Below are positions 5,049 through 48,263 of a stretch of 63,762 bases of DNA, piece after piece. Under the pieces are notes generated by a model. That model was not told the DNA's origin and made no database searches. It saw only the letters and a program-made list of their open reading frames with translations. Positions within the stretch are counted from its first letter, which is position 1, and every line of letters starts with the position of its first letter. The translations under genes and the position numbers were made by a program. The stretch comes from Paraspadella gotoi (lineage: Eukaryota > Animalia > Chaetognatha), in contig CM119266.1 in assembly GCA_051294375.1 (NCBI GenBank), positions 23,260,413-23,324,174 on the forward strand, written 5' to 3'.

Positions 5049-8000
5049 TTCCAACGATTCATTTTACAGTGAAACTCCAATCAACATTTGCCTCCTCTTA
5101 CCTGTTCTGGTGAAGGCCATCGTATATCCGTTTTACATAAACGAAATCTTGCTCTGGTTCTCCAAGGACGAGAGGGCTGTTAAGACTATTCTCATCATTT
5201 TTCTGATTGTTTGCAACACTATGACCATTTTGGAGATTTGGATCAGGAGCCGCTTGGCCTATTATGACAAGGCAGAAAAACGACTCATCTCTGACATGCA
5301 GAAGATTCACATTCACTACATTCGCAAGAGGTAGACATTAGATATTGGAAAACCCCCTCCACTGTCACTCCATAATATTATATTCTTTTTCTTTACTTAG
5401 CTCAATGCGACTCTGGTTTGAGAGTATATCAATAAATAACTCTTTGATCAGTCTGTCTCAGGGATGCCGGAGGCGTTGAATTTCGCTCCGCCCGTCCGTC
5501 TGTTTGTCCGTCCGTCCCCCCTGAACAAAAAACTCCTATTACTCGTGATTGGATGGTTGGATTGGAATGAAATTTTGTGTGTATGATTGAGCTGGATATA
5601 AAGTTTCGATGGAATCGTGCGAGTTGAAATGAATTAGAATGGAAAAAAAAGTCACATTTACTAAGCTTTTTACTAATTCTAACCCATAAATTACTCGAAT
5701 TATTCACAAAGGAATGGATAAAATGAGATGAAATTTTGTGTGGGTAGGGAAGTGTGTTATTGGGCAGAATATAAAGTTTCGATGGAATCGAGGAGTGGAA
5801 ATGAGTTACTTGCGAGTTTTTCTTTTAGATTCTTTTATCCCCGGGGCCATGTTTTAACTAACTGTACTGATAGTTTTCCTAAGGCCATATTTTGCTTTCT
5901 CAAAGATTTGAAGATACCCAAATTAGGAAATGTTTAGCTCTAACTTAAGCTAGATTTTTTTTTGCTTTCCCAAAAGCTAATTTTACTTTCCCAAAAGTTA
6001 CTCTTGTTTTGAAAATTTCTTAATAAGGTCAATTTTGGATTTTTTAAAAGCTAATATACGCATTAAGGCGTAGTGAAAGTTACATACGAAAATTCTAAAA
6101 GTCAATTATTAATAACATACCATCAGTGAACATTAATTTATTTATTTATTTATTATGAAATTGGTACAACTAATATAAAAATTATCCATTCATTTAATAA
6201 ATAAGCTATCTTGCCCCTGACTTTGGACAGGCTTTGGTGGTTTAAGGCATCCATCACTCATAGCAGGTCCCTGCAAACTTTCAATCAAGACTCTCTCTCT
6301 TATATTATTTTAATATATAAAAAATTAATTTTCAGCTTAAAATATAGCTTTTTCTAATTTTTGACCCACTTAATAAAGGAATTTTTCAAAAAGAGTTATA
6401 TTTCTTTTTATCAACTTTTTATGAGGAATCCAAATTTACAAAAAAATCTTAGAAAAAACTGTTTTGAAATTTGAACATTTATTGGTTTAGTACTAGTATA
6501 AATAAAACTATAAATATGGCCTACTGCGTAAATTGTAAAATTTATTAAAAATTTTTTTTTATTATATAAATGTTCATTAGTATAATGTTGTTCGTTCCTC
6601 ACTTTTAGAATTTTAATTAAAGTTAAATTTAGAAATTTTACTCCGCCTTATTACGCATTTAAAATGCCCAAATAAGGCAATCGTTTGCTTTTGTAAAAGC
6701 TATTGGTTTGTAATCATAACCAAATTAGGAAGTTTTTAGCTTTTCTAAAAGCAACCAAATAATTGTTAGTGTTTTATAAATAGCAAGAAACTTAATACTT
6801 AATGTAAATATTTTAACGTATTATATATTTTAATCTTTTTTACGCAAATAATTGATTTATTTAACATAAAGAAGTCGTCCACAACTTTTTTATCACATTA
6901 AAAAAAAGATTTCTGTTGAAAAAATGATGCCAGTATGGTAGACTAAAATCCACCAAACGTTCATCAGCGGCCATTGGTGCCGAATGACTTGCCTCCGGCA
7001 CCAATGGCCGCTGATGAACGTTTGGTGGATTTTAGTCTACCATACTGGCATTATTTTTTTAACAGAAATCTTTTTTTTAATGTGATAAAAAAGTTGGGGA
7101 CGACTTCTTTATGTGAAATAAATCAATTATTAGCGTAAAAAAGATTAAAATATATAATACGGGGTTCTAGTTCGGTGGTCGCCTAGCAGTTAAGAGGGAC
7201 GGGGCTCTTAATAGAAATCTACTATGAAATTAAATTCAATAGGAGCGGGGATTCAAAACTTTAGTCTTGAAGTCTACTTTTAGGTAAAAAAAGAATTTTT
7301 AACAAAAGTTTGATTTTAATGCTTTTATTGTTGCTATTAAAATTACAATATTACTATATAATGATTAAGGAGTGTAACGAAAATTCGTTTATGAACAACA
7401 ATTTATTTAACAGTTTCTAAGGACATATTTCGACTCTATGTTTCGAGTCTTCATCAGCAAGTGAAAATATTAGAGCCAATTATCTCAAACATCAGTTTTG
7501 GAGAGAGAGAGAGAGTGAGAGAGAGAGAAAAAGAGAGAGAGTTTCCAACAAAGAATTGAGTGAGGGATAGTGGCCAGATGTGAGGACAGGTGATAGGCCT
7601 ACCGAGGGCCCTCCTCTCACCTGACGGTGAGGCGGGCGGTTGCCTGTTCTGGCCTGTTTCGGGACAGGTGATACAGACTCCTCTTCCTCCTCCGGCACCC
7701 ATCGCTTTGGGCGGCGCTCGGTGTGAGAAGAGTCACACTCAAGTTGCTGCAGGTTCGGTTGAGGCATCGGATGTCCATTAAGGCGTAGTAAAATTTCTAA
7801 ATTTAACTTTAATTAAAATTCTAAAAGTGAGGAACGAACAACATTATATTAATGAACATTTATGTAATAAAAAATTTATATTAAATTTTACAATTTACGC
7901 AGTAGGCCATATTTATACTAGTTCTAAATCAATAAATGTTAAAATTTCAAAACAGTTTTTTCTAAGATTTTTTTGCAGATTTGGATTCGTCATAAAAAGT

Positions 8001-11000
8001 TGATATAAAGAAATATAACTCTTTTTGAAAAATTCCTTCATTAAGTGGGTCAAAAATTAAAAAAAGCTATATTTTAAGCTGAAAATTAACTTTTTATACA
8101 TTAAATATAGTTTTTTTTAATTTTTAACCCATTTAATGAAAGAATTTTTAAAAATGATTTATATTTTCTTTTATCAACTTTTGACGAGGAATTCAAATCT
8201 GCAATCAAAATTAAAGAAAAGCTTATTTTAAAATTTTTCGATTTTATAAGGATAGTACTATATATAAATATAGCCTACTGCGAAAATTAAAAAACATAAA
8301 ATTAATTTTTTTTACAAATTAATGTTTACTGATGGTATGTTGTTCATAATTGACTTTAAATTTTTGTATGTAACTTTCACTACGCCTTAATGTCCATTGC
8401 CTGCTGAGAGGCTTCCGCCTGATCCGTCGAGTAGTAACAGGGGAATCACCGTGCGGTTGAGGTGGCGTTGGGTGCTCCACCACAGTTTTGATAAGCGAAT
8501 CATAGCTTGGAGGGAGTTCGAATCGTCCTCCATCACGGTTCAAAGAGGGCTCGAGGGCCTTGATAAAAATGGCCTCTCTAATACCTCTTGAGAACCAGTT
8601 CTGGTCATGGGACAGCACGAGACAGTCTTCCTCTCTGAACAGATGGCCCATGTTCGTTGCATGCTCTGCAATTGCCGACAGGAAGTGCCCTCTCGCGTCG
8701 CGGTAGGGTTTAACGTGCTGCTGGAACCGATCTGAAAGAGATTTGCCTGTCTCGCCCACGTATGCTGCTGTACAGGCTTGGTTGCCCGCCCCTGCACAGG
8801 CCGCCCAGTAGACGGCTCCTGATGTTTTCGGTCTGGGGATTTTGTCTTTCGGTTTCACCAATTGCTCACATAAAGAGCCGCGGGTCGTCACTGAACTGGA
8901 GATCCCCTGCTTTGCTAGCACCCGCACCAATGATTCAGTGATCCCCTGGTGGTAGGGGAGGGACAAGTGACCCACGTTCTTGAGACGCTTCTGCTTATCT
9001 CCCAATTGCGCTGTGGTGGGCGCGGTAGGTCCTTCATGATAATAATAAAAAGTTTTTTTAATCAATCTTAACTTTTTTTAATGGATTCTGATAGAGCATA
9101 AAAAGTTAAATAAAAAATATAACTACAACTTTCAAAAATATTTATGTATTCTTGGTCAAAATTAAGAAAAAGTAATAAAATTATCAAAAAATGATGATGA
9201 TGATTATAAATAGTTTTTTATATTTTTCACACACTTATGATCAAAATATCGAAACAAGAATTATACTTTGTGATGACAACTTTTTGCAAGCTACCTGAAT
9301 CTGATCTTAAAAATAAAAAAATCCGAAAAAAATTTTTAGCCTTTCCTATTTATAAATAAATAATAAAAAATTAATATATGGAGTATGAAGTAATATTAAA
9401 AAAAATTGTCAATTCAAATTTGTTAAAAAATGTCTAAATTTTCGTTTGAGCAGGTGCTTAATTCAAATTTCTTAACCACCTTACTGAGTTAGTCTCCCCC
9501 TACTCTTAACCCGCCTGTAACACGGTGTTACAGCCTGATCCGAAGCTCAGGGACTGCTTATATTGAACGGTTCTGTCACTAGCACATAATAATAATTACT
9601 GTCTCTTCATTGGTGAGCCCGACTTCCGAACACAACAGCAACAACAACACTTTCAGGCGACATGCCTCAACCTGGCGATGCACTTTCCGCCAACAACACA
9701 TCAGGCAACATGCCTCAATTTTGTGACGAACCTTTCACCAACAACAACAATTGACTGAAGAGACGCAACAGACTTCTCCCTACGAGAGGGGGGGATGCAT
9801 GGTGGACTAAAATCCACCAACCGTTCATCAGCGGCCATTGGTGCCGGAAGCAAGTCATTCGCCTCCCAACCCAAAGGTCCGGAGTTCTAGCCCGGTGGCC
9901 GCCTAGCAGTTAAGAGGGCCGGGGCGCTTAACCCGCCTGTAACACGGTGTTACAGCCTGATACGAAGCTCAGGGACTGCTTATATTGAACGGTTCTATCA
10001 CTAACACGTAAAAATAATTACGGTCTCTTCAAGATATACTAAAGCTTTTAGTCTGAGCATGTATAAACTAAAAGTATTGTATTATCGTCAGGTTTCCTTG
10101 GGACTTTATCGCCCTCCTGCCAACGTGGGTCATCCATTTCACTTTGATGAGCAAAGACGAGGTCTTCGGGTCCATCTTCATTCGCATCTCTCTCGAACTG
10201 TTCGTTTTCTCTATCCCGATTTGGATCGACCTGTTTCAGATGCGTTACTATCTGAACAATGCTCGACAGGAGCAGCCGGCTTCCCCGGTTCTTAAGCATT
10301 CAAAGAAAATAGTTCGCTTCATAGTATTTTACGCCTGCATGGTGTCGATCTTGGCCGCCGCTTGGGTCTCGATCGGATGCATCGACAAAGAATTCGACAT
10401 ACTTCGTTGCCGAAAGAATTCCTGGACTTACTTTATCAACGTCAGCGCCGGCATCAAATCGAAATTCGGGATATTTTTGTCGGCGTTTTACTTTATCGTC
10501 AATCTTGGAGGCAATGGAAGAGGCGACATTCTCCCTCATAACACTTTCGGTAAATTTTTTTGGGAAAAATCTTTTTAACGAGGTTGTGGAAGACGATGCC
10601 GCGAGCAGTTCACCGTCAGTTGCACACAAGTTCCCGAACTTCGGATCGGGCTGTAGTCCGTCACTATAGCTGGGTTAGACGCCTCGTCGGGCTTCCTTGG
10701 GTGAATCAGCGGGGCGCGAACCCGAGTCCTTTGTTGGGAGGAGCTCGTGCTACCTCCGGCGCCATAGGTGCTGCTGATTCAAGTGAGGTACATAGCTATT
10801 TTAGTGTAATGTAGTCTGTAGAATTCGATGGTGATGACCATTTTTTGGTATAATTTTATCTTTCTTGTCGGAAATGACGGTTTTTAATGTATATAAAATT
10901 GTTATAAAATAGCAAAACCATTAAAAATTATGATAAATCAAATAATTAAAATTATATAAAATTTATATGAGCTTTTGAAATCTAAAAATAAAGACTTTTA

Positions 11001-14000
11001 AAAATATTTTGGTAAGTTTATTTCTAAATTTTATGTTTTATAAAATGTTAGTTAACTATATTTATTAATAATTATGAGTAAAAATTAGGCTAATATTAAA
11101 AAATAATAATTTCAAAATTTTTTTCATGGATTTGCATTCTTTGCAAAAAGTTGATATAAGAAAATATAATTTTTATATCAAAATTATGTCATTAAGAAGG
11201 TCAAAATTCAGAAAAACTATAATTTTAAGCAAAATTGAAAAATTAAACAAAAATAAGTTTTTAATATTTTTAACCTACTTAATGAAAGAATTTTTTAAAA
11301 TGGATTATACTTTCTTATATCAACTTTTTGTAAGGAATTCAAATCCGGTTTTAAAATTTTAAAATTTTTATTTTTTTACTTTAGCTTATTTTTTATTATT
11401 ATTTTTTAATAAATATAGCTAACAAACTATTAATAAAATATAAAATTTGTAAATAAACTTACCAAAATATTTATATGGGTCTTTATTTTCATATAATGTA
11501 AGTTAAATATAGCTTTTATAAAATCTTAAGAATTTGAGTTTCTTATACTCTACGATGTTTTCTCCATTTTAATAGCACCTTATATGCTGCAAAAATCGCC
11601 ATTTCCGACAAAGAAGATGAGACTATACAAAAAAATGGTTATCATCATCGAATTCTACAGACTTTATTACACTAAAATATCTATGTACCTCACTTAATTT
11701 GTTATATTTTGTTATTTTTCAACGTCCTACCGCGCAAGTGTGATGGCTATGATGCACGCGTTGTGCCCGAGCACTCTAGGAGGGGCTGCTTATTCCTGCT
11801 CTCGTCTTCACACATGATGTTCGAGGGCAGAGGTGTGTTAACATGCCCGGGAAGAGGTGTATTAACGTGCCAGCGTTTTCGTGTGGGCTCACCAATGTGG
11901 AAGATGACGACGCGAGCAGTTCGCCGTCCGTTGCACACAAGTTCCCGAACTTCGGATCGGACTGTTGTCCGTCCTTTGGGTTGGGAGGAGCTCGTGCTAC
12001 CTCGGGCGGCATAGGTGCTGCTGATTCTCGGACGAGTAACGGGGTATTAAATACTACAGTGGAGATCCTGAGTATAATTATATAAGAAAGAAAATAAAAT
12101 CGCCAGACGAATTCTTTAGAAATTGTTTTGTTTACCAATGTAACCAAAGTTTCTCTCTCTATAAAAATGAATTCCACTTTGTACAATTAGCCCATTCGAT
12201 TCCATTCGCTTTTCTGATTTCAATAAATCGATTCATCTCATTTTGTTCGCTTTTTCTTCTCGACGACCTCCACTCGACCGCTACAAGGTGCAGATTTCAG
12301 AATCCACAACTGTGAGTCGAACGTTTAAAATGTTTTTCTTCAAGTAATTAAAATTATTTCAAAATGATTTACAGAAAGGTATTTTAAACTCTGAAAAGAA
12401 AGTTCAGAGCAAAGTCCCTGCAAAAAAAGAGTTTCTTAAATCAATCAAATCAATTCGAACCTACTGCGGAGTCTCATGTTTTAAACATTTTACAAGTTTT
12501 TTACACAATTTAAAGATGTATTTTTCCATCATATTTTTGTAAATTAGCTTGTTAATCCAGCATTTCTTTATCTATTCTTTTGATTTAGAGATGGTATTCG
12601 TTGCATTGGCAATCTTTCTCATCAATTTTTTGCTTGTTTATAATCAAGCGCATGTTGGAGCTATGGTGTACATATTTACGATGAGAAGCCGAATATACCA
12701 AATGAATAAAGCAGAAAACCAAGCCATCTTAAAAATGTAATGAACTCCATCAGTCTGCCTTTGAAAAAAAATTATATTTCAGTTACTATTACATCTCTAT
12801 TAAATGAATACTTTTTTTAAAATTTTTTGTACCAATTCCATAACATAATGTAGAACAAATGAACAATTTTCTCTTTCCTTTCTCTCTCAACATAGAGTTG
12901 AGAGTTGAGAGTTGCTAAGTATTTTATGATAATAAACCTCTCCTAATCTCGGTCACGCTGGTTAAGTGTGATGTTACATACCCTCATATAACTTAAGATT
13001 CTTGCTAACTCTTAGGTATGACGCCGAACCCAACATCCACGATCGGGTGCAACGATATTTAAAAATGTCCGTCAACTACTATGAGCACCACCGTTTGCAC
13101 ACTCTTTTCAACAATCTTAATCTAACTCTAAAAAAGGACGTTGTCTATCCTTTATGCGAAAAATTTTTTGATCAGCTCCCTATGCTTGATTCCTTGTCAT
13201 CAGGTTTTTAAAAAAAATGCTTGATATTTTTTCACTGATGAACATTTGTCTTTTGTATTTTGGTTGCTCACCAACGCTATTATCGAAATAATACAAGACC
13301 AAGAGTCACCTCGGGGTAATTATTCTTATATTCAGGAATATTGCGTCAATTATCTCTTTGTGTTCGCGAGCAATTATTTCTTCCTGGAGACACTGTTATC
13401 GATATCGGCGAGACAAATTCCAGAGCGTTTTATATTGCCAAAGTATGCAGATTGCAGATTGTACAGACCTGTGCAAAAAAAACGCGCCACTTTATTTCAG
13501 ACTTTAAAAATCACTCTATAAACTAGAATTTAAAAAAAAAAATTAAAGTTGATTAAAGTTTATTGAAAGATGCTAAGTTTAGCATAAATTTTATTAAAAT
13601 CGGGCCATCCATTTAAGAGCAGTGATTTTTTAAAATGAAGTACTCTATCGCAAAGCTGAACAAAAAAAAATCTGATACATTTAAGACTAATCTTTTTCCT
13701 TCTCATATTTTACAATACTTGAAATAGATTAAAAATAAAAAAAATTACACTGGACATCCGGAGGGATAGCTGGATAACTGAATTGCCCCAGATCCCTAAA
13801 TAATAATCTTAAGGTTATTAAAACATATGATGAAAGATAGGTCCACGTCCATGATTCTGAAGCTTTTACACGGATTTCAAATGGGAGTTAAATGAAATGA
13901 TCAAATACTGTTAGGGGTGAGTCAAAAATTTAGAGTGAGTACAAGCTCAAACGAAAATTTATACATTTTTAAGTATACTTTAAAATTTCAATGGACAAAA

Positions 14001-16756
14001 TTTTTTTTATATGGCTCTATACCCTAGTAATTATTTTTTTAATATTTATTTATAGATAGGAAAGGCCAAATATTTTTTTGACAAATTTTAAATTTTAAGA
14101 CCAGATTCAGATAGCTTATAAAAAGTTGTCTACACAAAGTATAATTTTTTTAAAAATATTTTTATGATAAGGTCAAAAATAAGAAAAATCGTAAAAAATT
14201 GTCATCATCATCATCTTTTAATGATTTTATCGGTTTTTTAAGATATTAACAGAGAAAATGTGAGAATTTTCAAAAACTGTAATTATGTTTCTCGTTTAAC
14301 TTTTTATGCTCTTTCAGAATCCATCAAAAATTTTCTTTATATGGTAATATAATAATTTTAATTAGGCTAAAACCCTCAGAAAAAAGAATTTTTGACAAAA
14401 AATATTTTAATACTATAATCTATGCTCATGATAAATTATTTTAACGCTGTATACATTAGCATTTAAATTTCATCGGCTATGGCTAATACTGTGGCTAAAT
14501 TTTCTGATAGAACGACTTCAGATTTGTTACCCTGGTACAAAAATAGCTGACGGTTTAATATTTTAACTCCCAATAGTCAAGACTGCTTATTTTCTTAGTT
14601 ATGTGATCAATGGAATGATCGAATTTTTAAAAAACAAATTTTTATACATTTTAGTAGGACTTTCTTGTTATAAGATATAATTTTTATGAAAAATATGTTT
14701 TAAATTGTTGGTTCATATTACCTATATAGACATTGGAGAATGTGTCTGAGCAATCTGAATATCAAAAGCTTTTTCACAACCACAATGACAGCCTTTTTCA
14801 TTTTATAGTTTTTCCAGTTAAAAAAAATCCGTGTAGATAAAAGTCGATTATATCTCCTAAACCACTTGACTGATTGTAATAAAATTTAGTTACATTGATT
14901 CCTTTTTTAACAAATTTTATTTTTTTTATATAATTTTTAAAAATGTATTTATAGAGTGTCTGGAATTTAAAGTTATAAAGTGGCGCGTTTTTCTTCCACC
15001 GGTAACCGATAGTACTTATAATTCATAAAACAGAATCATTTATTAGGGACGTCTGGCGTTAAGCGTCCGAGATAAAAATTAGCGAATAAAAAAGTTGTTA
15101 TTTTACTCACTGAATAAAAATACTTAAAATACTTACAAAATACGTAAAATTGATAAAATTATTATTGCAAAAACAATGTTTAATCACATGCACTACATCT
15201 AGTGCCTTTTTTTCATTGAAATCGATAGATATTAACTAAATATATTAGAATTAATTTTTACTTTTGATATAATAAGAGAACCATACTTCCGTCACTTGAT
15301 GTCGTCAGGTTAATAATATATATGCGTTGGAGGATTCCAAATCTGTTTTTAAAATTGACCTATGTAGACGCGCATAGACGCGATATGCCTTGAAAGCAAG
15401 TTGTTTGGTTTGGTTCCACCTAAATTTTTAGCTTCGGCCGAGTCAATTGGTAATAAAAAAATTGATTTTCTTTGATATCTTTTGAACCAAAAATGATAGA
15501 ACGATGAGACTGGTATCGTATTAAAGCCATAATTATGGAGCATCTTTTCCATATAATTTTTTTAAAATGTTTCAAGGGATTTTTTAAAAATCTTGATCGG
15601 AATCTTAGTCAAAAGTATAACAACTTTTGAAATTAAATTAAACACACTTGGCCACATTTAAAAAAATAAATAAATATAGATTCTGAAAGAGAAAAGATTA
15701 AATTAAAAGATTAAATTATGTTTATGATATAAACAAAAATTTTCTATACCTCAAATGTTTATATAATTACTAAAGATAATGATTATCATTTTGTTGAAAA
15801 CAAAAAAGTTTAAAAAATTCATGTAGGAACCTTAAAAAACATATTATTTAAATATGATAATTTAAGAGTTTAAACTTTGTTCCCCTGATTTAAAAACTAC
15901 TGACATAGGGCTAAAAGACTGTATTATCAGATTTTAAATTTTTAAGATTTAGCTGTGTCTACGAGGCCTGGGAGAAAAAATTTATCACAATTTTTTTTTA
16001 TTTTATGTCATAATGCTATCATAAAATAATTTTAATGCATCACGTTAGGTATCATACGAAAGCTAACGATGTCTGCTACATGACAGCACGTGAAAAAAAA
16101 AATTTCTTAATAAAAATAAAAAAATCACCAGACTACCCTACATTTATATTGTTTCAAAAATAAAAAATAAAAATTAAGAAAGACGAAGGCGATTTTAACA
16201 GGTAACTTCAACACGTGCGTTAACAAATTCCGTTTTGATTATTAGGGAGAAGGTTATTTGATCGATAAAAAGAAAAAGGTTAAAATCGTGCACACCGAAG
16301 AAGTCGTGGCTAAAGACGCGTTGCTCATGGCTCAAGAGTCAGTCGTAAAGTTCAAGGCGAAAACATTTTTAGCTCTTTATTCTTTAAGTCAGGTTAAAAG
16401 CGTCGAAATCGCTTCGCTTTTAAAAGAAGACATTTCATGCGTTTCTTCTTTTTCTCCAGGACGACTTTATGCGGTGGCTCATGGCACTGGCCGACGCGGG
16501 TCTCCTTCAAGACGATAAAAGGTCCGCCTTTGTCACGCTTTTCGAAACGGCGGACAAGCAGAGCGTCTCCGAAGTGATCGATTTGTCCACGACGACCGCG
16601 ACCTACGAGGAAGAGCAGAGGATCGAGGCATGGGTCAACTCATACTGGCTCAAGACGCAAATGGACATGGCGCGTTCCAGAAGGGAGAGGAACGGTAAAG
16701 ACTGTGAAGAAGATTCCTTGGGGGGTTTCTCAGTTTCAGATGAGAACATTGTTTGA
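5049..16756 (+). CDS. Spliced CNBD-family (CNG/HCN/KCNH-like) 6-TM ion-channel-like gene; 5' exon(s) not identified
   Basis: Phase-consistent GT-AG exons at 5049-5330, 10092-10549, 12589-12736, 13016-13203, 13336-13442, 16246-16392 and 16460-16756. Motifs in order: S2-S3 (IRSRLAYYD...KIHIHYIRKRFPWDFIALLP), pore (FYFIVNLGGNGRGDILPHNT), S6 (EMVFVALAIF), C-linker (HDRVQRYL...LNLTLKKDV), CNBD (LRQLSLCVREQLFLPGDTVIDIGE..FYIAKG...ALL...KAKTFLALYSL). Confidence 0.85.
6064..6650. mobile_element. MITE with TAAGGCG-type TIRs and an 8-bp TSD (hAT-like), copy 1; contains a SINE-like insertion
   Basis: Ends taaggcgtagtgaaa ... ttttactccgcctta. Flanks atacgcat / ttacgcat match at 7 of 8 bases. It is an inverted homolog of 7779-8389. 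Confidence 0.75.
6153..6300 (-). mobile_element. SINE-like retroposon 3' fragment
   Basis: Same sequence (aaagcctgtccaaagtcaggggcaagatagcttattta...gtaccaatttcata) as 20099-20179 and 39700-39975; here followed by a (TAAA)n-type tail. Confidence 0.6.
6817..7161. repeat. Long inverted duplication: arms 6817-6982 and 6996-7161 with a 13-nt spacer
   Basis: The arms are near-perfect reverse complements and include the 5' part of a family-B LTR. Confidence 0.9.
7422..7457 (-). ncRNA. Minimal type-I hammerhead ribozyme core at the 3' end of the Penelope element
   Basis: The minus strand reads CUGAUGA-A-GACUC-gaaacaua-GAGUC-GAAA-UAU-GUC. The 3' strand of stem I is absent. Confidence 0.7.
7779..8389. 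mobile_element. MITE with TAAGGCGTAGT TIRs and a perfect 8-bp TSD ATGTCCAT (hAT-like), copy 2
   Basis: TSD at 7771-7778 and 8390-8397; inserted in the PLE ORF. Confidence 0.88.
9905..9980 (+). ncRNA. Twister ribozyme (P5-type permutation), family B 3' LTR, with point mutations
   Basis: agcagt-taa-gagg-gc-cggg-gcgct-U|AA-ccc-gcc-[tgtaacac/gtgttaca]-g-cctga-tacgaagc-tcagg-g-actgct. The split 5' LTR copy retains the canonical GA and the loop tccgaagc. Confidence 0.72.
10623..10703 (-). ncRNA. Twister ribozyme (P5-type), family D, decayed
   Basis: cacccaag...ga-cgag-gcgtc-U|AA-ccc-agc-[tatagt/actaca]-g-cccga-tccgaagt-tcggg-aa-cttgtgtg, preceded by a tRNA-like segment with B-box gggttcgcgccc. 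Confidence 0.62.
10781..11695. mobile_element. Foldback/MITE with long imperfect TIRs (aagtgaggtacatag...ctatgtacctcactt)
   Basis: More than 100 bp of terminal inverted similarity. The centre shares sequence with the TAAGGCG MITEs. Confidence 0.75.
13468..15004. mobile_element. Degenerate TIR element (aaaaacgcgccacttt TIR core) containing a dispersed repeat (13913-14480) also found at 22028-23325
   Basis: Inverted match between ~13468-13522 and ~14948-15002. The internal repeat provides the empty site (aagttgtctacacaaag) for the family-A TRIM. Confidence 0.5.
15044..16140. mobile_element. MITE with TAGGG..GTCTGG TIRs and 7-bp TSD CATTTAT, copy 1
   Basis: tagggacgtctgg ... ccagactacccta; catttat at 15037-15043 and 16141-16147. 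Confidence 0.85.
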
Positions 16757-18696
16757 GCAGTGCTTAATCTCGACTTAATATTAACTCAATCCATATATCA
16801 AAAGATAAAAATAGAATAATAACTTTATTAAGTATTCAATATCCAATAATCATTGAAAAACGTGCATCAGAATGACAGAGAACCAAAATGCAGCAGCAGC
16901 AGTAGAGCTGATACGCAGCAACAGTAGCAGCAGATGCAGCAACAGAACCGAGACGCAGCATCAGCAGCAGCAGAGCCGAGACGCAGCAACAGCTCAAAGC
17001 TACATAAAAGCTTAAAATTAATTACCATATTCAAATAATTTTACAAATATCATTTAATACCTGATGGTCTCAGAGGAATCTCCCAAAAATTAAGAATTTA
17101 CTCCCCTTTTATATACAAGGACACAATTATTACAACCAATGAGAGGAGAATTCACATTTTAAGAATAAGATCAAAACATCTACTAGTTATTATTAACCAA
17201 TGAGAGACCAGATATTCAAATTCAAGGTATAAAATTCAACCAATTAGAGACTTTAAACAGAACTATTGGAGTCATTCAATTAAACTTCAAACTCAGATAT
17301 TTGAACCACTAAAAAATAAAAGGTCAGGGCTCAATTCAGATAAAAATCTTTATAAACTCTTTAACAGACTGATTGCTCAGTGCCGCTAATGATAATAATA
17401 AATGAATCAAAATCGGGAAACTCCTTAAATATTCATCATGTTACGAGGATTTTAATTGTTTTTTTCTAAAGTTGTAATTAAATACATTTTTAAAAAATAT
17501 TTTCAGAATTAAAAAAAAAATTAAATTAAAATTACAACAACGATTTTGAGCCTTTTTAATCATCGAAGCCCCCTTGTCCTCCATAAAACTTTATATCCAG
17601 CTGTCACACACTTTCCTACCCACACACAAAATTTCATTTCAATCCATCCATTAGAGTTTAATGCTAAGGTGGGGCTGACAATGTTTAATGCTGTTCCAGT
17701 TAAATTAACTTATTTTTTCGTTTGGCCAGCGCTAAGGAAACACTCAAACATCAATACGAGTTGTAACTGTTGCCTTCCCTGTAGAAAAAGGCGAGAAGGG
17801 GTTGATGTTACGAACCTTTCAAGTGGAACCCTCGGGCGGTAGCGCCAAGACGGAAGTGCAGGACGCTCGAACAACGAGCGACTGGCAGAATAAGTACGAG
17901 CACCCTTCTTCGGAGCTGACAAAAAGACGAGCGGAAGGTTCGTTGTAGTCCAGGCTTTAAAATTAATGAGAACCGTCGAGTTCAAGGTATTATATATATA
18001 TATATATATAATTTATATATATATTATATAGAAGCTCTTCCCGACGATCATGATCACTTATCTGTTAAGGGCTATTAAAAATTATTTAGTCTTTCATGAA
18101 ACAAGCCACTTTGACTTTCTGATTCTGTGACCACATTTTTACAAGAGTAAAACATGTGCATAATAATTAATTATCAATAACCTACCTTTTTGCTAAGATT
18201 AACTTGAATGACTGGGTTTTATATGAATCATACCGCTTTTACTTTTTGGTCTTTTGATCGTATTTTTAGGTAATTAACTAATTATGTAACACAATCATAT
18301 TATGTTAATTCAACGTTTTAGTACAAGCAAATCAAGGCCCAACTAAAAATTGATCATAGTTTCTGCGTATCACCTTTTGTGGTATTTGAAGTGTAAACAC
18401 TTTAAACCTACCCCGCTTATCAAAACATGATTAAACGATGTGGTCGTTATGCAAATTACTGCTTCCGCGCAGCTTGTCACAGTTGCAAAATAGGGCGACT
18501 GTCAAATACGTGCGCTCCGGGTTTTTTGAAATCTCTGTCAGCCTAGTGACTGAAGGTTGTAGGAATTAGGAAGTATGTATGTATGTATGATTGTGCATGG
18601 AGCAACCACGTTCCCTTTAGCCAGTAAGTGAGTAAGGGACATGGACTTGAAGAAATTCTGAGTATTTGGTGATTAGTTTTATTTTTTCCTAAACAG

Positions 18697-19257
18697 ATAC
18701 GACTACTGAACCGCAGTCAGGGAAGAACTCGAATGAGCAGGTTATGCTTGTTTTATACTTTTTAGTCATACTAATTTAACTGAGTGAGTTGTTGCAGTTG
18801 AATTTGACAGGTAATCGATATATTACGCTTATACACACATTTAATTTATTAACACTTGTTTAACGATTTTAAACATGTGATCATCTGTAAATATAATCAC
18901 TTTGAAAAAAGCTTATGCGGAGTAATATTTCGGAATTTCCATTCCATTTATGGGGACTTTTTAAAATTTCGTTTAGAAGCATCAAGAGAGATCATATTCC
19001 TTCAATCGGCCTCACTTGAACGACGGGACATCGAATAACTCCTCTCAGAATCCCTTTTCCTCGGAGGCTAGACGCTCCGACAATCCATTTGTGGAAGAAG
19101 AAAACTTGGAGAGTCTCTCGACGTCTGATAGGCGCAATCGCTTTGTCGGGCCCTTCCGATCGATCCATTCCGACGGCGTTCGGTCGCGGTTCAACTCATT
19201 GAAGAAAAGAGTCGCCATCAAGGATGAAGCAGAGGACGAAGTCGAAAATAATTTCAA
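18697..19257 (+). CDS. Possible coding exons (18697-18740, 18977-19257) of an unknown gene, or the 5' end of the downstream TMEM121-like gene
   Basis: AG/GT-bounded, phase-compatible, GC-richer open frames (KHQERSYSFNRPHLNDGTSNNSSQNPF...). No recognisable domain. Confidence 0.35.
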
Positions 19258-19616
19258 GTTTTAGGCTAATACATATAAAATTGATTTTCTCAAGCAGAAT
19301 AATAGTTGAAGCAACTGTCGATTCGTGGTATATCCTAATTAATTAATAATTTCACGATTGTTCGATTATAATGATAAATAAATCTGTATAATCGAGCGTA
19401 TCGAGGTATTTTACAGTTTTTGTTCGTTTTTTACAATCTTTAGTCAATAATGTTCCTGCTTCGATCGTCAACATTATGCGTCATTTCATCAAAGTGGGAG
19501 AAAGCGGCGGAGGCGTAACCGCTTCCTTTGTTACCGCTTCCTTTGCTTCCGCTCTTCAGTCAATCAAAATTCATTTACGTTCAGAACAGTGGAAATAGTG
19601 GTATTTCAACAGATGG

Positions 19617-21187
19617 TAGGGAAGTCTGGCGTTAAGCGTCCGAGATAAAAATTAGCGAATAAAAAAGTTGTTATTTTAGTGACTGTCTGGTGGTCCTATC
19701 ACCACAGATGGATTAAAGCTGTTTTTTTTCGCAGCGCCTCAGTGGCTCAGTGGACTAATGAACCATCCTAATGTGCGTCGCTGGTTCGAGCGCTGAGGTT
19801 GTCATGTAGAAAGTGGGATGGACCGGGAAACCCGCCTGTTGGCAAGGGCCTGCTGCCAGATCCAAAGCTCTGGACTACATGAACGTGCTGTCTCGCTGTC
19901 GCCACGAGGTGACACCGCTGCTGGTGTGGCGCCCTGTAAAACCAGCCTCTTCAAATGAATAAAAATACTTAAAATACTTACAAAATACATAAAATTGATA
20001 AAATTTTTATTGCAAAAACATTGGTCAATCACATGCAATATATCTAGTGCCTTTTTTTTCATTGAAATCAATAGATATTAACTAAAAATAAAAATAAAAA
20101 GCCTGTCCAAAGTCAGGGGCAAGATAGCTTATTTATGAAATGAATGGATAATTTTTATATTGGTTGTACCAATTTCATAGAACTAATTTTTCTTTTTGAT
20201 ATAATAAGAGAACCGAACTTCCGTCACTTGATGTCGTCAGGTTACTAGCAAATATGCGTTTGAGAATTTGAAAATAATGTTAAAAATTCTCTAAAATAAG
20301 CTTAATTTAAAGCTTATACAATGTAATTGTTATGCACTTAAAACAATAAAAAAATGCTTACCTAGTAAGGAGAAATTTGGTAAGGTAGAAAATATCAAAA
20401 TATGCAAATGAGATTATGCTTATTTTAATTTAAATTTTTGAGACCACCAACAGATAAAGTATGCTTTGGCTATTTTATGGTTAAAAAATCAATCCAATTC
20501 TTTTCATATTTTAGGTATAAATGACAATTAAATTTTGTTATAAAAATTTTGACCTGTAACAATTTTTTTTTTTAAACGATCGAAACTCATATATGTTGTA
20601 GAGCTACAGAAGACCCATCTATAACTGTAATTTAAAAGTATAATATTCACTACTATAATAGTTGTGACTGATTAAAAAAGTAATAAAACAAAACTTTCCC
20701 TCAAAACTGGGATACTTTTCGGAAGGGGGTAATCAAATTCCTCTACCCGATATGTTGCTCAAATTAAAACGAATTATCAACCTTCCTTAATTATATTTTC
20801 CACATTCTTTTCCTGGGTGCTCAAGTCAATTAATGAAAAAAATCAATTCTGACAAAAAATTGAATAAAAATTTTAAAATAAATGAATTTAAAAAAATTAT
20901 TTTCGTCAATATTTATGATACTGAAGATCAACATTGAGGAGTTATAGACAGAATATATCAAAATTTATTAGTCCCAATTATTACAAATGTAAAAGTAAGA
21001 TTTAGCTGTGTCTACGAGGCCTGGCAGAAAAAAAATTATCACAATTTTTTTTATGTCATAATGCTATCATAAAATAATTTTAATGCATCATGTGAGGTAT
21101 CATATGAAAGCTAACGATGTCTGCTTCATGACAGCACGTGAAAAAAACATTTTCTTAATAAAAATAAAAAATCTCCAGACTACCCTA
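19617..21187. mobile_element. MITE with TAGGG..GTCTGG TIRs and 7-bp TSD CAGATGG, copy 2; hosts a family-A solo LTR and a SINE fragment
   Basis: tagggaagtctgg ... ccagactacccta; cagatgg at 19610-19616 and 21188-21194; termini homologous to 15044-16140. Confidence 0.85.
19684..19953 (+). mobile_element. Solo LTR of twister/tRNA-like TRIM family A (twister at 19802-19882, slightly mutated)
   Basis: TG...CA ends; closely similar to LTRs 22238-22509 and 22695-22963; absent from the homologous site near 15110. Confidence 0.88.
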
Positions 21188-22357
21188 CAGATGGTAAATG
21201 AGTTACTCTCATAGTAAACCGCAAAAATCTGTATTTTTTACGTTTAAATAGAATGGAAATAATCGAGCGTCCTCTCTTATTGTGTAAATGAATATATCAA
21301 ATGAAAATTTAAAAATGGTGTGGCGGTTGTATATATTGTAAGAATCAGATTAAATTAAGTGAACAACCAAGGAGGCGATAACAGGTAAAGCATGATTATA
21401 AAAATGCACCAGAACTAGATTACAAGATTGATAAAACCTCAGGCTGTTTAAAAAATATGGTAGGACAAATAAAAACTGCTTGGCGCTTATCTCTTCACAC
21501 CTGTCTAATTCTGATTCTATCTGTTCTTTGGACGACTTTGACACTGGCTATTTTTTTTTCAGTGTCGATTAAAGTTTTTTGAGGGCAACCAGAAATGATA
21601 CGACGTAATAAACAATTTTTTATCATTGAAGAGGTTCAAATCGAAACTGACTAGTCGATATTTCTCAGAAATTGTTAATCTTTCACCTTTGATCGATAAT
21701 CAACGTATCTTTTGAGCTAAGGACCCAGCACCTAGAAGATTCGCAAGTGCCTGCTAATTGGTTCAACTTAAAAATTGTATTATTATTGACATCCGCGGTT
21801 TTTCATGATGGATATGAGACTCTTCGTTTGGGCTTCCATTTGTTGCCTTACTTGCTTCGCCCTCGTTTCTTATCAAGGTTTCGTTCTCAACAGTCTCTAC
21901 AATAGTTTGACCTCGAACAGGTACTAGAGAATGTTGTTTCTCCAATGAAACAATTTTTCGATTCCGTTCTCCAGCCTCTTTATTTGTTGTAAATTTGTGC
22001 CTGTTCGCTAGAGGTAGCCGCACTCAATGGGGTGAGTCAAAAATTTTGAGTGAGTACAAGCTCAAACGAAAATTTATACATTTTTAAGTATACTTTCAAT
22101 GGACAACAAATTTCTTATATTCTTATACCTTTGTAATTAATTTTTTAAATATTTATTTATAGATAGGAATGGCCAAAATTTTTTTTATAAATTTTTATTT
22201 TAAAGACCAGATTCAAATAGCTTATAAAAAGTTGTCTTCTGGTGGTCCTATCACCACAGATGGATTAAAGCTGTATACTTTACAGCGCTCCCTCAGGTGG
22301 CCTCAGTGGACTAATGCACCATCCCAATGTGCGTCCCTGGTTCGAGCCCTGAGGTTG

Positions 22358-22438
22358 TCATGTAGAAAGTGGGATGGACCGGGTAACCCGCCTGTAGGCA
22401 TGGGCCTACTGCCAGATCCAAAGCTCTGGACTACATGA
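22358..22438 (+). ncRNA. Twister ribozyme (P5-type permutation), family A 5' LTR; predicted cleavage 22384|22385
   Basis: P5 tcatgtag/ctacatga; gtgg-GA-TGGA; U|AA-ccc-GC-c; P3 gtaggc/gcctac; P4 ccaga/tctgg with loop TCCAAAGC; pseudoknots T1 UCCA:UGGA and T2 GC:GC. Matches the twister consensus order UAA..GCC..(P4)UCCYAAGC..GA-T1. Confidence 0.85.
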
Positions 22439-22746
22439 ACATGCTGTCTCGCTGTCGCCACGAGGTGACACCGCTGCGGGTGTGGCGCCCTGTAAAACCA
22501 GCCTCTACAATGGTGAGCCCGACGTGATCCCGAACACGCAACCCGGCATGATAATATCCTCTGCCCTTGATGTGGTTTGAGCTACACAGCTGCCACTCAA
22601 AGCAAGGCCACCAGAATGAAGAGAGGTTCAGCGGAGGAGCATGCGCTTCATCCCCCTGCTTCGTACTCTCATATGCGAGAGTCCTGGGGGCGGCTGTCTG
22701 GTGGTCCTATCACCACAGATGGATTAAAGCTGTTACTTTCACAGCG

Positions 22747-22808
22747 CCTCAGTGGCTCAGTGGACTAATGCACCATCCCAATGTGCGTCCCTGGTTCGAG
22801 CCCTGAGG
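22747..22808 (+). promoter_or_regulatory. tRNA-like internal Pol III promoter in the LTR (A box TGGCTCAGTGG 22753-22763, B box GGTTCGAGCCC 22793-22803)
   Basis: Consensus A and B boxes, closing stem cctcag/ctgagg, and a middle stem gcac/gtgc around catcccaat. It is not a complete canonical tRNA. Confidence 0.8.
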
Positions 22809-22811
22809 TTG

Positions 22812-22891
22812 TCATGTAGAAAGTGGGATGGACCGGGTAACCCGCCTGTAGGCATGGGCCTACTGCCAGATCCAAAGCTCTGACTACATGA
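22812..22891 (+). ncRNA. Twister ribozyme, family A 3' LTR; predicted cleavage 22838|22839
   Basis: Same as the 5' LTR copy except for one missing G at the base of P4. Confidence 0.8.
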
Positions 22892-23459
22892 ACATGCTGT
22901 CTCGCTGTCGCCACGAGGTGACACCTTCTGCGGGTGTGGCGCCCTGTAAAACCAGCCTCTTCAGTCTACAGAAAGTATAATTCTTTTTTAAATATTTTTA
23001 TGATAAGTAGGTCAAAAATAAGAAAAACCGTAAAAAATTGACATCATCATCATCTTTTGCTGATTTTGTTAAATTTTTACTAAGAAAACGTAAGAATTTT
23101 TAAAAGCTGCAATTATATTTCATGTTTAACTTTTTATACTCTATCTTTATATATTTATATAGTAATATGATAGTAATATAATATTATATAGTAATATAAT
23201 AATTAGGCGAGTACCCTCAGAAAAAATAACTTTTAACAAAAAATATTTTAATAGTATAATCTATGCTCATGATAGATGATTTTAACGTTGTATACATTAG
23301 CATTTAAATTTCATCGGCTATGGCTATCTTCGCAATAGATAGCGTTTTATATTAGCCGGATCTCCTTTTCGCAGATTCCTGGCCTATAGTACACTTTGTC
23401 GGTCCGTCGGTATCTTTTTGGTAAATCACTTATAATCTTTTAAACTCCAATTATCAAAC

Positions 23460-23492
<33 letters not shown>

Positions 23493-23650
23493 GATGTCCG
23501 TCCATCAGTCTGTATGTCCGTCCGTCTGACCGTCCAGCCCCACTTGGCATTAAAACCCAACTACTCGTGACTGTATAGATGGATTGAGTTGGAATTTTGT
23601 GTGTGAGTAGGAAAATGTGTCTTTGAGCTATTGTTAAGCCTGTTTCCCAG

Positions 23651-25465
23651 CCTCCAAGACTTTTGGACCTTCACTGCGGTCGACGTTGTGCTCGCCGTTT
23701 TCCTCTCCACTTTCCTCGGCATCTCTCTCTGGCGAAGCGTCAAGATTCGCGCCGCCGCGCAAGAGGCGGCCGAGGCGCTGACGGCGCCGATTACCGACTC
23801 AGCCTTGATTCTCGACGTGTTGGGACCCATCCTCGCCTGGCTTCTCTATCTCATTGCGCAAGGATTTAAAACTGTTATCATCTATAGCGGTTCGTTTTGA
23901 CCATACTTGTTATCATAGTTCTTTTCCACAAGGGCGATTCATATTTTATACTTATTTATGAATTACTTTTCGACCAGCGCTTTTTACGTAAAAATTATCC
24001 GTAACCTTCTTGTAATTTTCAAGGCTTCGCCAATGCAAGCAGCTCCATCGACTTTGACGCCGACGTCTTACCCTGGAATGCCACTGACGCGATAGAATTG
24101 ACTTACATCGCTGACGAATTTAAATGGGGAATCTTTTTGACAGCGACCATCTTTTTCGTCATCGCGCTCGCAAACCTGGGAGAAGGTTGTTTTTTGTTTT
24201 GTTTTTTTTTTTCGATCGTTTGTTTGTATTGTGAGTTATTTTCTGTTATATTGTGGCGAATCCCAAAATTTGCCTCCCGTATAGCTTGGTGAAACTCACC
24301 CCGTCCTATTGGCTTACACAGCTCAGTACTCGTTCCCCAACCCGTGAGTTTCGGGTTCAATCCATTCACGGTCACACTGGTTAAAGTGAGAGGGTGTCGG
24401 AATTAACACGCCAGTGACTTGGGTTGGGCACTGCAGGTCCAAAGCCCTGAACGCCAGCTGTCGGCAGATGCCTCACACCCCAGGCATCACACATGTCCCC
24501 CCCGTTGCCATAATATACTTAATATTATACTTATTCTTCTTTCAATTGAGTCGCTGTCTCCTAAAATAAATAAGTATGACTAATAATATTTTTTCTTCGT
24601 TATACTTACTTACTGTTCGTGTATGTTCATTTTTTATTTACTTTAAATTAAAGTAAATAAAAAATGAACATACGCGAACATTAATATTGAGGATATTACG
24701 CAGGTCAAAATAGACGAAACGCGTATTTGGTCGCTGGAACCATGTTAATATTTTTCGATTTCTTGGACACGACGACTTTCGTGGACATTTGTTTCGATCT
24801 TGGTTACCAAAAGGCAAGGTCTTAATTTAAACGGACGAAAGCAGCTTAAATTAACTTATGATGATACCATTTGTTCTCGTTTTCAGCTTCGCAATGTCTC
24901 CACCATTCGCGTAATGGCGCTAGTCATCTATTGCTTGAGCCTTTGTTTTCCACTGTACGCCGTTTCCGAAATGATGAGAACGAGATTCGGCGTTTGCGAG
25001 ATTTATAGAAATTTCGAGGCGAGTTAAAATTGACGAAAATAGCAATAAGAATTACAACAATAACAACAAAAAAACATAAATTTAAAAAAAAAAATTACTT
25101 TTCAAATTAATCGTTTAGCAGCGAGAAGTTTTTTTTTCTTTTTCAACATTTTTTTTTTATTTTATAAAAAAAATTGTTTGAGCAAATTAGAATTCGTCCG
25201 AATCTGGGGTGGGGTGAAAAAGTCCCAGACTTACCTGCCTTACCCATTCTTACAGGTGACTTACTTTGTATCCCGAATGATCCTCGTCGACATTCCCCTC
25301 GTCGTCCTTCGATCCATCGCCGCCCACTACCAACTCTTCGTCGTCGGTCAGATCCTCTTCGTCACGAGGGCGTTCCTCGTCAAGAATTGCGTCTCGATCC
25401 TCGCCAGCCTTTGGCTCTTGTGCCAGTTGAACCCGGGGCGTCGTTTAAATTATAGCGTCTTGTAA
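23651..25465 (+). CDS. TMEM121/CECR6/TMEM26-like multipass membrane protein, paralog 1; 5' exon uncertain
   Basis: Exons 23651-23889, 24024-24185, 24704-24813, 24887-25018 and 25256-25465. Motifs FDFLDTTTFVD, LSLCFPLYAV and VDIPLVVLR...AFLVKN; colinear with paralog 2. The family name was assigned from memory of motifs. Confidence 0.75.
24252..24512 (+). mobile_element. Solo LTR of twister/tRNA-like TRIM family C, TSD ATAT (intronic)
   Basis: Termini tgtggcga...ttgccata flanked by atat (24248-24251, 24513-24516); B-box ggttcaatcc; twister-like motif inside. Confidence 0.72.
24377..24457 (+). ncRNA. Twister ribozyme (P5-type), family C, partly decayed; predicted cleavage 24404|24405
   Basis: ctgg-ttaaa-gtga-ga-gggt...U|AA-cac-gcc-[agtg/cact]-g-cagg-tccaaagc-cctg-aacg-ccag. 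P2 cac/gtg; T1 imperfect. Confidence 0.65.

Positions 25466-47170: not shown

Positions 47171-48263
<1,093 letters not shown>

What the first reader, a model, noticed from the sequence alone, without database searches (positions are those of the whole stretch)
9503..24512. Four diverged families share the architecture, and the ribozyme covaries across them
Seen: families A (19.7 and 22.2 kb), B (7-10 kb), C (24.3 kb) and D (10.6-12 kb, minus) have little primary similarity but keep the order tRNA-like module > twister > LTR end. Stems change compensatorily: P4 ccaga/tctgg (A), cctga/tcagg (B), cagg/cctg (C), cccga/tcggg (D); P5 tcatgtag/ctacatga (A), agcagt/actgct (B), ctgg/ccag (C), cacccaag/cttgtgtg (D); P3 gtaggc/gcctac (A), gtaacac/gtgttac (B); pseudoknot T1 UCCA:UGGA (A) versus UCCG:CGGG (B). 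Inference: catalysis has been under selection across an old radiation that is probably abundant, given about 8 LTR copies in 20 kb.
Basis: partly seen in the sequence, partly recalled or inferred. Interest (0 to 1): 0.9.

Follow-up and report, generated by a model that had tools for sequence, protein, structure and literature searches.

The report
Twister-ribozyme mini-retrotransposons in an animal
Four abundant families of tiny jumping elements in this animal genome carry, in their end repeats, a tRNA-like stretch (a likely promoter) followed by a conserved twister-ribozyme fold that is predicted to cut the element's RNA into units that would circularise, a life cycle known from plant elements that use a different ribozyme.

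Summary
The window has eight LTRs of four non-coding mini LTR-retrotransposon families. Three families have a tRNA-Trp primer site; two insertions have exact 4-bp target duplications. All four families put a tRNA-like A/B-box module before a P5-type twister fold. Across one copy per family, 86 of 98 pair cells pair and 13 of 25 pair columns change on both sides, including both pseudoknots. Of the 12 unpaired cells, 10 pair in most other copies in public runs. Those runs show dozens to hundreds of different flanks per family. The chassis matches Helenus (tRNA-promoter TRIMs); the ribozyme-in-LTR logic matches plant hammerhead retrozymes. Ten literature searches found no twister in an LTR element and no animal LTR retrozyme described. 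Best model: Pol III read-through, cleavage in both LTRs, a ~454-nt circular RNA, and Gypsy-type reverse transcription. Caveats: cleavage, Pol III use and circles are untested. Rfam does not call the motif. P2 is one pair short in three families. The window's B, C and D copies are damaged. Four families are few for covariation statistics, and the age is undated.

The parts
22238..22963 (+). Full family-A element (726 bp): two LTRs and a non-coding internal region, flanked by the 4-bp duplication GTCT (22234-22237, 22964-22967)
   Evidence: a joint skipping 730 bases at this place appears in 4 of 4 runs; the flank is itself a repeat, so the empty site may be paralogous
22238..22509 (+). A 5' LTR (ends CA; the G of the TG start is missing)
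   Evidence: 263 of 265 aligned columns identical to the 3' LTR
22358..22438 (+). P5-type twister fold in the A 5' LTR, all core nucleotides present; predicted cut between 22384 and 22385
22511..22543 (+). Primer-binding site complementary to the 3' end of tRNA-Trp (17 of the first 18 bases match the human tRNA-Trp complement; the match continues into the T arm)
22686..22693 (+). Short purine-rich tract just before the 3' LTR (candidate PPT)
22695..22963 (+). A 3' LTR (TG...CA): tRNA-like module about 22743-22810 (A box 22753, B box 22793) and twister fold 22812-22891 with a 1-nt deletion in P4; predicted cut between 22838 and 22839
19684..19953 (+). Family-A solo LTR (TG...CA, no matching TSD) with twister fold 19802-19882
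6935..7211 (+). 5' pieces of the family-B 5' LTR (6935-6982 and 7160-7211, separated by an inverted duplication), ending at the predicted cut-site motif
9503..9609 (+). 3' piece of the B 5' LTR (3' half of the twister fold and LTR end CA); a 7-bp duplication (7205-7211, 9503-9509) flanks the 2.3-kb insert that splits this LTR
9611..9799 (+). B internal region: tRNA-Trp-type PBS 9611-9623, purine tract 9784-9795
9800..10031 (+). B 3' LTR: tRNA-like module about 9829-9903 and twister fold 9904-9981, broken at one T1 pair and at the conserved A after the general-base G
11896..12058 (-). Family-D 5' LTR (TG...CA); an internal deletion removes the 5' half of the twister fold; PBS-like TGGTGAGCCC follows at 11894-11885
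   Evidence: (33 contigs carry this 5' extension)
10585..10780 (-). Family-D LTR lacking its first ~30 bases: tRNA-like module about 10780-10704 and twister fold 10703-10623 with six broken pairs
24252..24512 (+). Family-C solo LTR-like unit (TG...TA, TSD ATAT at 24248-24251 and 24513-24516; no PBS seen): tRNA-like module about 24301-24373 and twister fold 24374-24460, broken at the cut-site A, P2, P3 and T1

Best explanation
These are short non-coding LTR retroelements whose LTRs hold a tRNA-like module (a likely RNA polymerase III promoter) followed by a conserved P5-type twister fold that is predicted to cut the transcript once in each LTR, giving a unit-length RNA that would be circularised and then reverse-transcribed, likely by a Gypsy-type helper, from the tRNA-Trp primer site. 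Shown: LTRs, PBS in A, B and D, purine tract in A and B, 4-bp duplications in 2 of 5 insertions, the covarying fold, many insertion sites. Inferred: (1) Pol III starts at the tRNA-like module of the 5' LTR and reads through, as the full A element has no T run longer than 3. (2) Cuts at 22384/22385 and 22838/22839 release 454 nt holding one permuted LTR plus the internal region, with no terminal repeat. (3) A host ligase joins the 5'-OH and cyclic-phosphate ends. (4) Copying around the circle rebuilds both LTRs, including the promoter that lay upstream of the first cut, and can also give solo LTRs. It works like a plant LTR retrozyme, built on a Helenus-type chassis with a twister in place of the hammerhead.
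For: Element anatomy. Covariation: 86 of 98 cells paired and 13 of 25 columns with double changes, including one T1 and one T2 column; 0 of 20000 column shuffles reach the paired count; the independent tool control agrees. A model built from the three A copies alone ranks B (38.4 and 21.1 bits) and D (18.2) next, and C scores 13.7; adding structure raises B from 19.5 and D from 11.8 bits. Of 12 unpaired cells, 10 pair in the majority of other copies: B 1 of 1, C 4 of 4 (one of them in only about half the depth in two runs), D 5 of 6. The sixth D pair is seen paired in one contig, and the last cell is a U.U also present in published S. mansoni twisters. Both missing conserved adenines (B, C) are present in 96% or more of the depth in the two runs that both calls laid (X1, X9). 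The ribozyme is the most conserved module between families. Natural twisters tolerate P1 and P2 imperfections in vitro (PMC11662667). No T4 terminator in the full A element, C or D. The retrozyme model predicts loss of the R repeat, circularisation and solo-LTR products (PMC4918200).
Against: No cleavage, Pol III transcript or circular RNA was shown. In the one RNA-like run the elements appear only as contigs, which cannot show level or ends. Rfam twister models miss A, B and D even at E 10. P2 is 3 bp plus a bulge in A, B and D; an older structural paper suggested that P2 length changes disrupt the active site (cited in PMC5408937). In A a competing 5-bp stem that buries the general-base G and T2 is 6.9 kcal/mol lower when pseudoknots are not counted. 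The T1 change between A and B/D is two CpG-type transitions, and CpG decay is visible among B copies. One majority difference in C removes a G.U at the tip of P3, and the table was cut (77 rows not shown). B has one T4 run in its internal region and the A solo LTR has a T8 run. TSDs match in only 2 of 5 insertions, C shows no PBS, and structure barely raises C's score (13.7 against 12.2 bits). Registers of P3 and P5 were chosen by hand, n is 4 families, and no autonomous partner was identified.
Confidence: 0.55

Rival explanations
1. The twister is active but serves mainly as a 3'-end former in place of the Pol III terminator. Transcripts that escape the first cut and are cut in the 3' LTR keep a ~95-nt terminal repeat and replicate as ordinary linear LTR RNA by strand transfer, with no circle.
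For: No T4 terminator in the full A element, whereas published Helenus LTRs seen in the supplement passages have T-rich tracts soon after box B. A competing stem could slow cleavage and give partly cut RNA. Cassandra replicates through a short terminal repeat (PMC10886601).
Against: Both LTRs carry the same ribozyme and the 5' one is transcribed first. Nothing seen would silence it selectively.
Confidence: 0.2
2. The fold descends from a twister but no longer cuts, at least in A, B and D with the short P2. It is kept as a structural signal for packaging or RNA stability, and the elements are ordinary Helenus TRIMs.
For: Short P2 in three families, no Rfam call, a competing 5-bp stem, and no natural example of the short-P2 form among 17 P1-type and 10 P5-type pattern hits in prokaryotic and viral collections.
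Against: The cut-site AA, the GA general-base motif and the L4 adenines are kept across four families whose flanks have lost similarity. C has a canonical 4-bp P2 in most copies. P2 defects are tolerated in vitro.
Confidence: 0.15
3. The units are SINE-like or Penelope-derived retroposons (promoter plus ribozyme, as in schistosome Sm-alpha repeats or animal non-LTR retrozymes), and the LTR arrangement is secondary.
For: Most copies appear to be single units: internal-region depth is well below LTR depth for A, and 5' flanks of B are mostly AT-rich. C shows no PBS. A Penelope-like ORF fragment lies inside the split B LTR (family label recalled, Pfam gave no hit). Earlier unchecked notes report P5-type twisters in Penelope-like tails.
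Against: The same tRNA-Trp PBS lies 1 base after the LTR end in three families, with purine tracts before the 3' LTR in A and B, TG...CA ends, 4-bp duplications, fixed 5' and 3' ends and no A-rich tail.
Confidence: 0.07
4. The 'twister' is a decayed class II tRNA read on the wrong strand; its three hairpins mimic P3, P4 and P2.
For: 5 of the 7 P5-type pattern loci scanned against Rfam held a tRNA on the strand opposite the match.
Against: Neither ARAGORN nor Rfam finds a tRNA on either strand here. Loop-to-loop T1 and T2 covariation has no meaning in a tRNA. The P3 base of A matches published twisters, and C hits Rfam twister-P1.
Confidence: 0.03

Closest known systems
Helenus / TRIMp3 (Kojima 2024, PMC10886601; read: text parts 1-4 of 6, passages, supplement searched with 11 motifs, not read whole)
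   Same: Non-coding TRIM under 1.3 kb, tRNA-like A/B-box module in each LTR, tRNA 3'-end PBS (tRNA-Trp occurs in wasp families), PPT, 4-bp TSD in animals, many solo LTRs, several families per genome, Gypsy helper inferred.
   Different: No ribozyme is reported (0 occurrences of 'twister' in the text). Motif searches of its sequence file showed no L4-type hit in a twister context (motifs broken by line ends are missed). Here 80 nt of twister fold follow the tRNA module and a T-tract terminator is lacking.
Plant LTR retrozymes (Cervera et al. 2016, PMC4918200; read: passages)
   Same: Non-autonomous element with a self-cleaving ribozyme in each LTR, PBS, PPT, 4-bp TSD; unit RNA between the two cut sites lacks an R repeat; solo LTRs.
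   Different: They use a type III hammerhead and tRNA-Met, occur in plants, have no tRNA-like internal promoter described in the passages read, and their circular RNAs were shown by experiment. Here: twister, tRNA-Trp, animal, nothing shown at RNA level.
Type-P5 twister ribozymes (Rfam twister clan CL00120; PMC5408937 passages and section 11; PMC11662667 passages and section 35)
   Same: Order P5-P2'-GA-T1'-(P1)-NAA-P2-T2-P3-P4(L4)-P5, conserved AA, GA and L4 adenines, two pseudoknots.
   Different: T1 is CCA/UGG or CCG/CGG rather than CCC/GGG, P1 is vestigial, P2 is 3 bp with a one-base bulge in three families, T2 has an A-U pair in D; below Rfam thresholds.
T-variant twisters of Perere-3 in Schistosoma mansoni (PMC8501958; read: abstract, sections 3 and 17)
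   Same: Twister used by an animal retroelement to process its RNA; the base of P3 in family A has the same sequence pattern.
   Different: P1-type, a single ribozyme at the 5' end of an autonomous non-LTR (RTE) element, target-primed insertion.
Schistosome SINE-like hammerhead repeats and animal non-LTR retrozymes (PMC6765202, PMC7761336, bioRxiv 10.64898/2026.07.22.740005; passages only)
   Same: A Pol III-type promoter lies upstream of the ribozyme, so that cleavage removes it and a second unit must restore it.
   Different: Hammerhead, tandem arrays, no LTR, PBS or PPT.

Membership tests
Helenus (TRIMp3) | Short non-coding element with two LTRs | tested here: met
   Full A element 726 bp; B and D have two LTRs but are rearranged; C is seen only as a solo unit
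Helenus (TRIMp3) | tRNA-like sequence in the LTR with box A and GGTTC box B | tested here: met
   Box B GGTTC in A, C and D window copies and in most B copies; box A TRGCY...YGG is full in A and partial in B, C, D. Not a callable tRNA
Helenus (TRIMp3) | PBS and PPT | tested here: met
   tRNA-Trp PBS in A and B, 10-nt match in D, none seen for C; purine tract in A and B, not seen in D
Helenus (TRIMp3) | 4-bp TSD (animal families) | tested here: inconclusive
   Exact in 2 of 5 insertions (full A, C); not matching for A solo, B and D
Helenus (TRIMp3) | Transcription by RNA polymerase III | not testable with these tools
   Unvalidated for Helenus too
LTR retrozyme | Hammerhead ribozyme in each LTR | tested here: not met
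   The ribozyme fold is a twister; no Rfam hammerhead hit in the LTRs. Works like a retrozyme, not a member as defined
LTR retrozyme | Same ribozyme at the same place in both LTRs, flanking PBS and PPT | tested here: met
   Full A element, unit length 454 nt
LTR retrozyme | Abundant circular RNA | not testable with these tools
   Only contigs were available
Twister ribozyme, type P5 | Conserved cut-site AA, GA general-base motif and L4 U/AA | tested here: met
   3 of 3 A copies and D complete; B and C each lack one in the window copy but have it in most other copies
Twister ribozyme, type P5 | Pseudoknots T1 and T2 with P4 | tested here: met
   Intact in A; double changes in T1, T2 and P4 across families
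Twister ribozyme, type P5 | Four-base-pair P2 | tested here: not met
   3 bp plus a bulge in A, B and D; 4 bp in most C copies. Reported as tolerated in vitro
Twister ribozyme, type P5 | Rfam twister model at gathering score | tested here: not met
   Only a partial twister-P1 hit in C, 19.3 bits against 67.2; none for A, B, D
Twister ribozyme, type P5 | Site-specific self-cleavage | not testable with these tools
   Needs an in vitro assay

The most novel reading that the evidence does not exclude
These are the first animal LTR retrozymes and the first twister-based ones: Pol III-driven mini-retrotransposons that replicate through a ~450-nt circular RNA cut out by a short-P2 twister variant that Rfam misses, diversified into at least four high-copy families in one genome. 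They would be a genomic reservoir for viroid-like circular RNAs that carry twister ribozymes.
Probability: 0.5. Interest if true: 0.8.

Novelty: new variant of a known kind. Interest (0 to 1): 0.68.

Why it matters
LTR retrozymes are described mainly from plants and only with hammerheads, and tRNA-promoter TRIMs (Helenus) are described without ribozymes. This element joins the two and swaps the ribozyme class, so circle-based LTR retrotransposition would have arisen at least twice. It offers a testable answer to how a Pol III-driven LTR element rebuilds the promoter end of its LTR. It gives twister ribozymes, whose biological roles are mostly unknown, a second retroelement role. The short-P2, altered-T1 form escapes Rfam, so similar families may be unseen in other invertebrate genomes.

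Tried and rejected
No whole genome is held, so copies could not be collected and R-scape-type statistics were not possible. Rfam on the whole window found no ribozyme or tRNA; ARAGORN found none. Relatives elsewhere: a box-B-plus-twister pattern gave 11 viral and 120 metagenome loci (that scan stopped at 39 of 64 parts), and 0 of these 131 passed the structural descriptor. Short-P2 patterns gave 13 + 10 viral and 4 prokaryotic loci. None of the 17 P1-type loci had a P4 of 3 or more pairs. Of the 10 P5-type loci, 3 near-identical ones had a 3-pair P4 with a matching T1, but they did not score with the A model (35 of the 158 loci given); its top hit was an antisense tRNA. These collections are mostly non-animal, so this says little about other invertebrates. 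Runs X11 and X12 (organisms B, C) laid 0 contigs on B and D, which is no proof of absence. No RNA holder is listed on record. X9 skips a GT-AG intron with no intron cover, so it is RNA-like, but contig depth cannot rank expression, and its ratio to DNA depth for A, C and D was like that of neighbouring AT-rich repeats; expression and circles stay open. Summed depths in X1 (single-copy 167-293; A LTR bins up to 5.1e5, C up to 2.7e5, D up to 3.0e5, B up to 4.4e6) suggest hundreds to over ten thousand copies, but the tool states that they are no copy number, and X1 may be the source of the assembly. Single-sequence folds were strong only for the A 5' LTR core (z -2.5) and the tRNA-like modules (z -2.0 to -3.7), weak for the C and D cores (z -0.4, -0.3). 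The predicted circle folds only slightly better than shuffles (z -1.9). A model hit at 39800-39886 (15.8 bits) lacks the core motifs and was dropped. Pfam and PDB searches did not name the two ORFs at 8319-9077 and 10072-10575. The supplement of PMC11662667 could not be read; it may hold tested twisters with a short P2. Three earlier-finding look-ups returned nothing.
Full report
What was checked. I read 6.5-26 kb and mapped the repeats by self-comparison. The host is an animal (homeodomain exon). No genome is held, so other copies were seen only through six public runs laid on two stretches.

Anatomy. Family A has a full element at 22238-22963 and a solo LTR at 19684-19953. The full element has two LTRs identical at 263 of 265 aligned columns, a tRNA-Trp primer site one base after the 5' LTR, a short purine tract before the 3' LTR, and a 4-bp duplication; a joint skipping 730 bases appears in 4 of 4 runs. 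Family B is one element whose 5' LTR is broken into three pieces by an inverted duplication and a 2.3-kb insert; it has the same primer site (9611), a purine tract and a 3' LTR at 9800-10031. Family D lies on the minus strand as two damaged LTRs, one followed by a 10-base match to the same primer site. Family C is a solo unit with TG...TA ends and a 4-bp duplication; no primer site was seen. Duplications match exactly in 2 of 5 insertions. Each family has an A/B-box module that neither ARAGORN nor Rfam calls a tRNA.

The ribozyme. Directly after the tRNA-like module each family has the order P5, P2', GA, T1', vestigial P1, NAA, P2, T2, P3, P4 with loop UCCNAAGY, P5: a type-P5 twister (features from PMC5408937). 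A descriptor finds 3 sites, all A, against 0.01 in shuffles. With one window copy per family, 86 of 98 cells pair and 13 of 25 columns change on both sides; leaving out the hand-registered P5, 65 of 75 and 7 columns; 0 of 20000 shuffles reach either paired count. The tool control on 12 motif-anchored pairs over 6 copies gives 88.7% paired, 0 of 500 shuffles as high, and at most 50.7% for slid registers; the tool warns that related sequences can beat shuffles without structure. A model built from A alone finds B and D next and gains from structure for both (38.4 against 19.5 bits, 18.2 against 11.8), but hardly for C (13.7 against 12.2). Between families the ribozyme is the best-conserved module and the tRNA-like module second; the 5' part, tail and internal regions show no similarity. 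So 'little primary similarity' holds only outside the two modules.

Damaged window copies, intact majority. All window copies of B, C and D have defects in a pseudoknot or a conserved base, the kinds that reduce cleavage in vitro (PMC11662667), or are split or deleted; they are probably dead. Of the 12 unpaired cells, 10 pair in the majority of other copies (B 1 of 1, C 4 of 4, D 5 of 6). One more is paired in a single contig, and the last is a U.U that published S. mansoni twisters share. Both missing conserved adenines are present in 96% or more of the depth in runs X1 and X9. Against this: one majority difference in C removes a G.U at the tip of P3, the outer P5 pair of C is restored in only about half the depth in two runs, minor variants in B and D break pairs at CpG sites, and the table omits 77 rows. 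The pattern means that the copies which amplified had the whole fold, in four lineages whose flanks no longer align.

Departures from a canonical twister. Rfam gives only a partial twister-P1 hit in C. In A, B and D the 5' strand of P2 has three bases against four, best read as 3 bp with a bulge whose base differs in each family; most C copies have the usual 4 bp. An older suggestion holds that P2 length matters; a test of about 2600 natural twisters found P2 imperfections well tolerated (its supplement was unreadable). In A a competing 5-bp stem is 6.9 kcal/mol lower without pseudoknots, but its pairing is not kept in B or D, whereas T2 covaries. The T1 change between A and B/D consists of two CpG-type transitions, so it is weaker evidence than the P4 and P5 changes.

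Abundance and age. In run X1, 194 contigs leave B at its 5' end into unlike flanks, and 52 and 40 leave C at its two ends. Summed depths are hundreds to over ten thousand times single-copy depth, a rough guide only. A and C also appear in runs of a second study. The age is undated, and no relative was found in viral, metagenome or prokaryotic collections, which hold little animal DNA.

Mechanism. The full A element has no T run longer than 3, and neither have C or D; B has one T4 and the A solo LTR a T8. Pol III starting at the tRNA-like module would therefore read into the 3' LTR. Cuts in both LTRs release 454 nt with no terminal repeat, which can rebuild both LTRs only if copied as a circle: the model published for plant retrozymes (PMC4918200). 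I give this 0.55. The main rival is that partial cleavage leaves a linear RNA with a repeat, the twister acting as terminator (0.2). An inactive relic gets 0.15, a SINE or Penelope derivative 0.07, an antisense tRNA 0.03. None of the RNA-level steps could be tested: only contigs were available.

Comparison and novelty. The chassis is Helenus (PMC10886601), for which no ribozyme is reported; 11 motif searches of its sequence file showed no hit in a twister context. The ribozyme placement is that of plant LTR retrozymes, but the hammerhead criterion is not met, so I do not file it as a member. A 2026 preprint still describes LTR retrozymes as primarily plant and hammerhead-based. Twisters are known at the 5' end of RTE elements. 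Ten searches of the open library (listings, plus the passages named above and those of PMC6765202, PMC7761336, PMC5680766, PMC10085705 and PMC13570524) showed no twister in an LTR element; subscription journals and Repbase were not searched. Unchecked earlier notes of this scan report P5-type twisters in Penelope-like tails of other genomes, a possible donor that I did not test.

Verdict. Real and statistically supported at the level of structure; a new variant that joins two known kinds and changes the ribozyme class; function inferred. Interest 0.68, and 0.8 if cleavage and circles are shown.

Noticed in passing
window 7205-7211 and 9503-9509: The B 5' LTR is split at the predicted ribozyme cut-site motif by a 2.3-kb composite insert flanked by a 7-bp duplication. 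It may simply be a TTAA-type target.
   Followed up: partly
window 8319-9077 (minus) and 7457 (minus): An ORF fragment with a VGETG...H motif resembling the GIY-YIG endonuclease of Penelope-like elements (label recalled; no Pfam or PDB hit), and a minimal hammerhead-like core about 0.9 kb downstream.
   Followed up: partly
window 10090-10549, 23648-23889 and 24024-24183: Stretches covered as exons by longer contigs of the RNA-like run. If the gene is on the + strand, as the GT-AG intron suggests, A, B and C lie in sense and D in antisense within introns. The first exon reads like a channel membrane segment (recalled; no database hit).
   Followed up: partly
window 47171-47524 (minus): Homeodomain exon of Antp-class type (Pfam PF00046, E 3e-15), so the host is an animal.
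   Followed up: no
window 22699-22713, 9800-9819, 24287-24299: A short GGTG...CACC hairpin sits upstream of the tRNA-like module in families A, B and C.
   Followed up: no
tRNA-like modules of A-D: All four keep a CCCAA run at the anticodon-loop position (one base differs in the A solo copy), suggesting a shared tRNA-Gly(CCC)-like origin (inference).
   Followed up: no
window 10781-11695 and 6817-7161: Long AT-rich foldback repeats interrupt the D element and the B 5' LTR.
   Followed up: no
window 24275 (loose end in run X5): One contig joins a C-type 3' end to a C-type 5' start, a possible head-to-tail LTR junction.
   Followed up: no
window 22379-22401: A diverged A-related subfamily with six listed differences around the cut site and P3 is the only form laid there in run X7; the table was cut, so its pairing could not be judged.
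   Followed up: no
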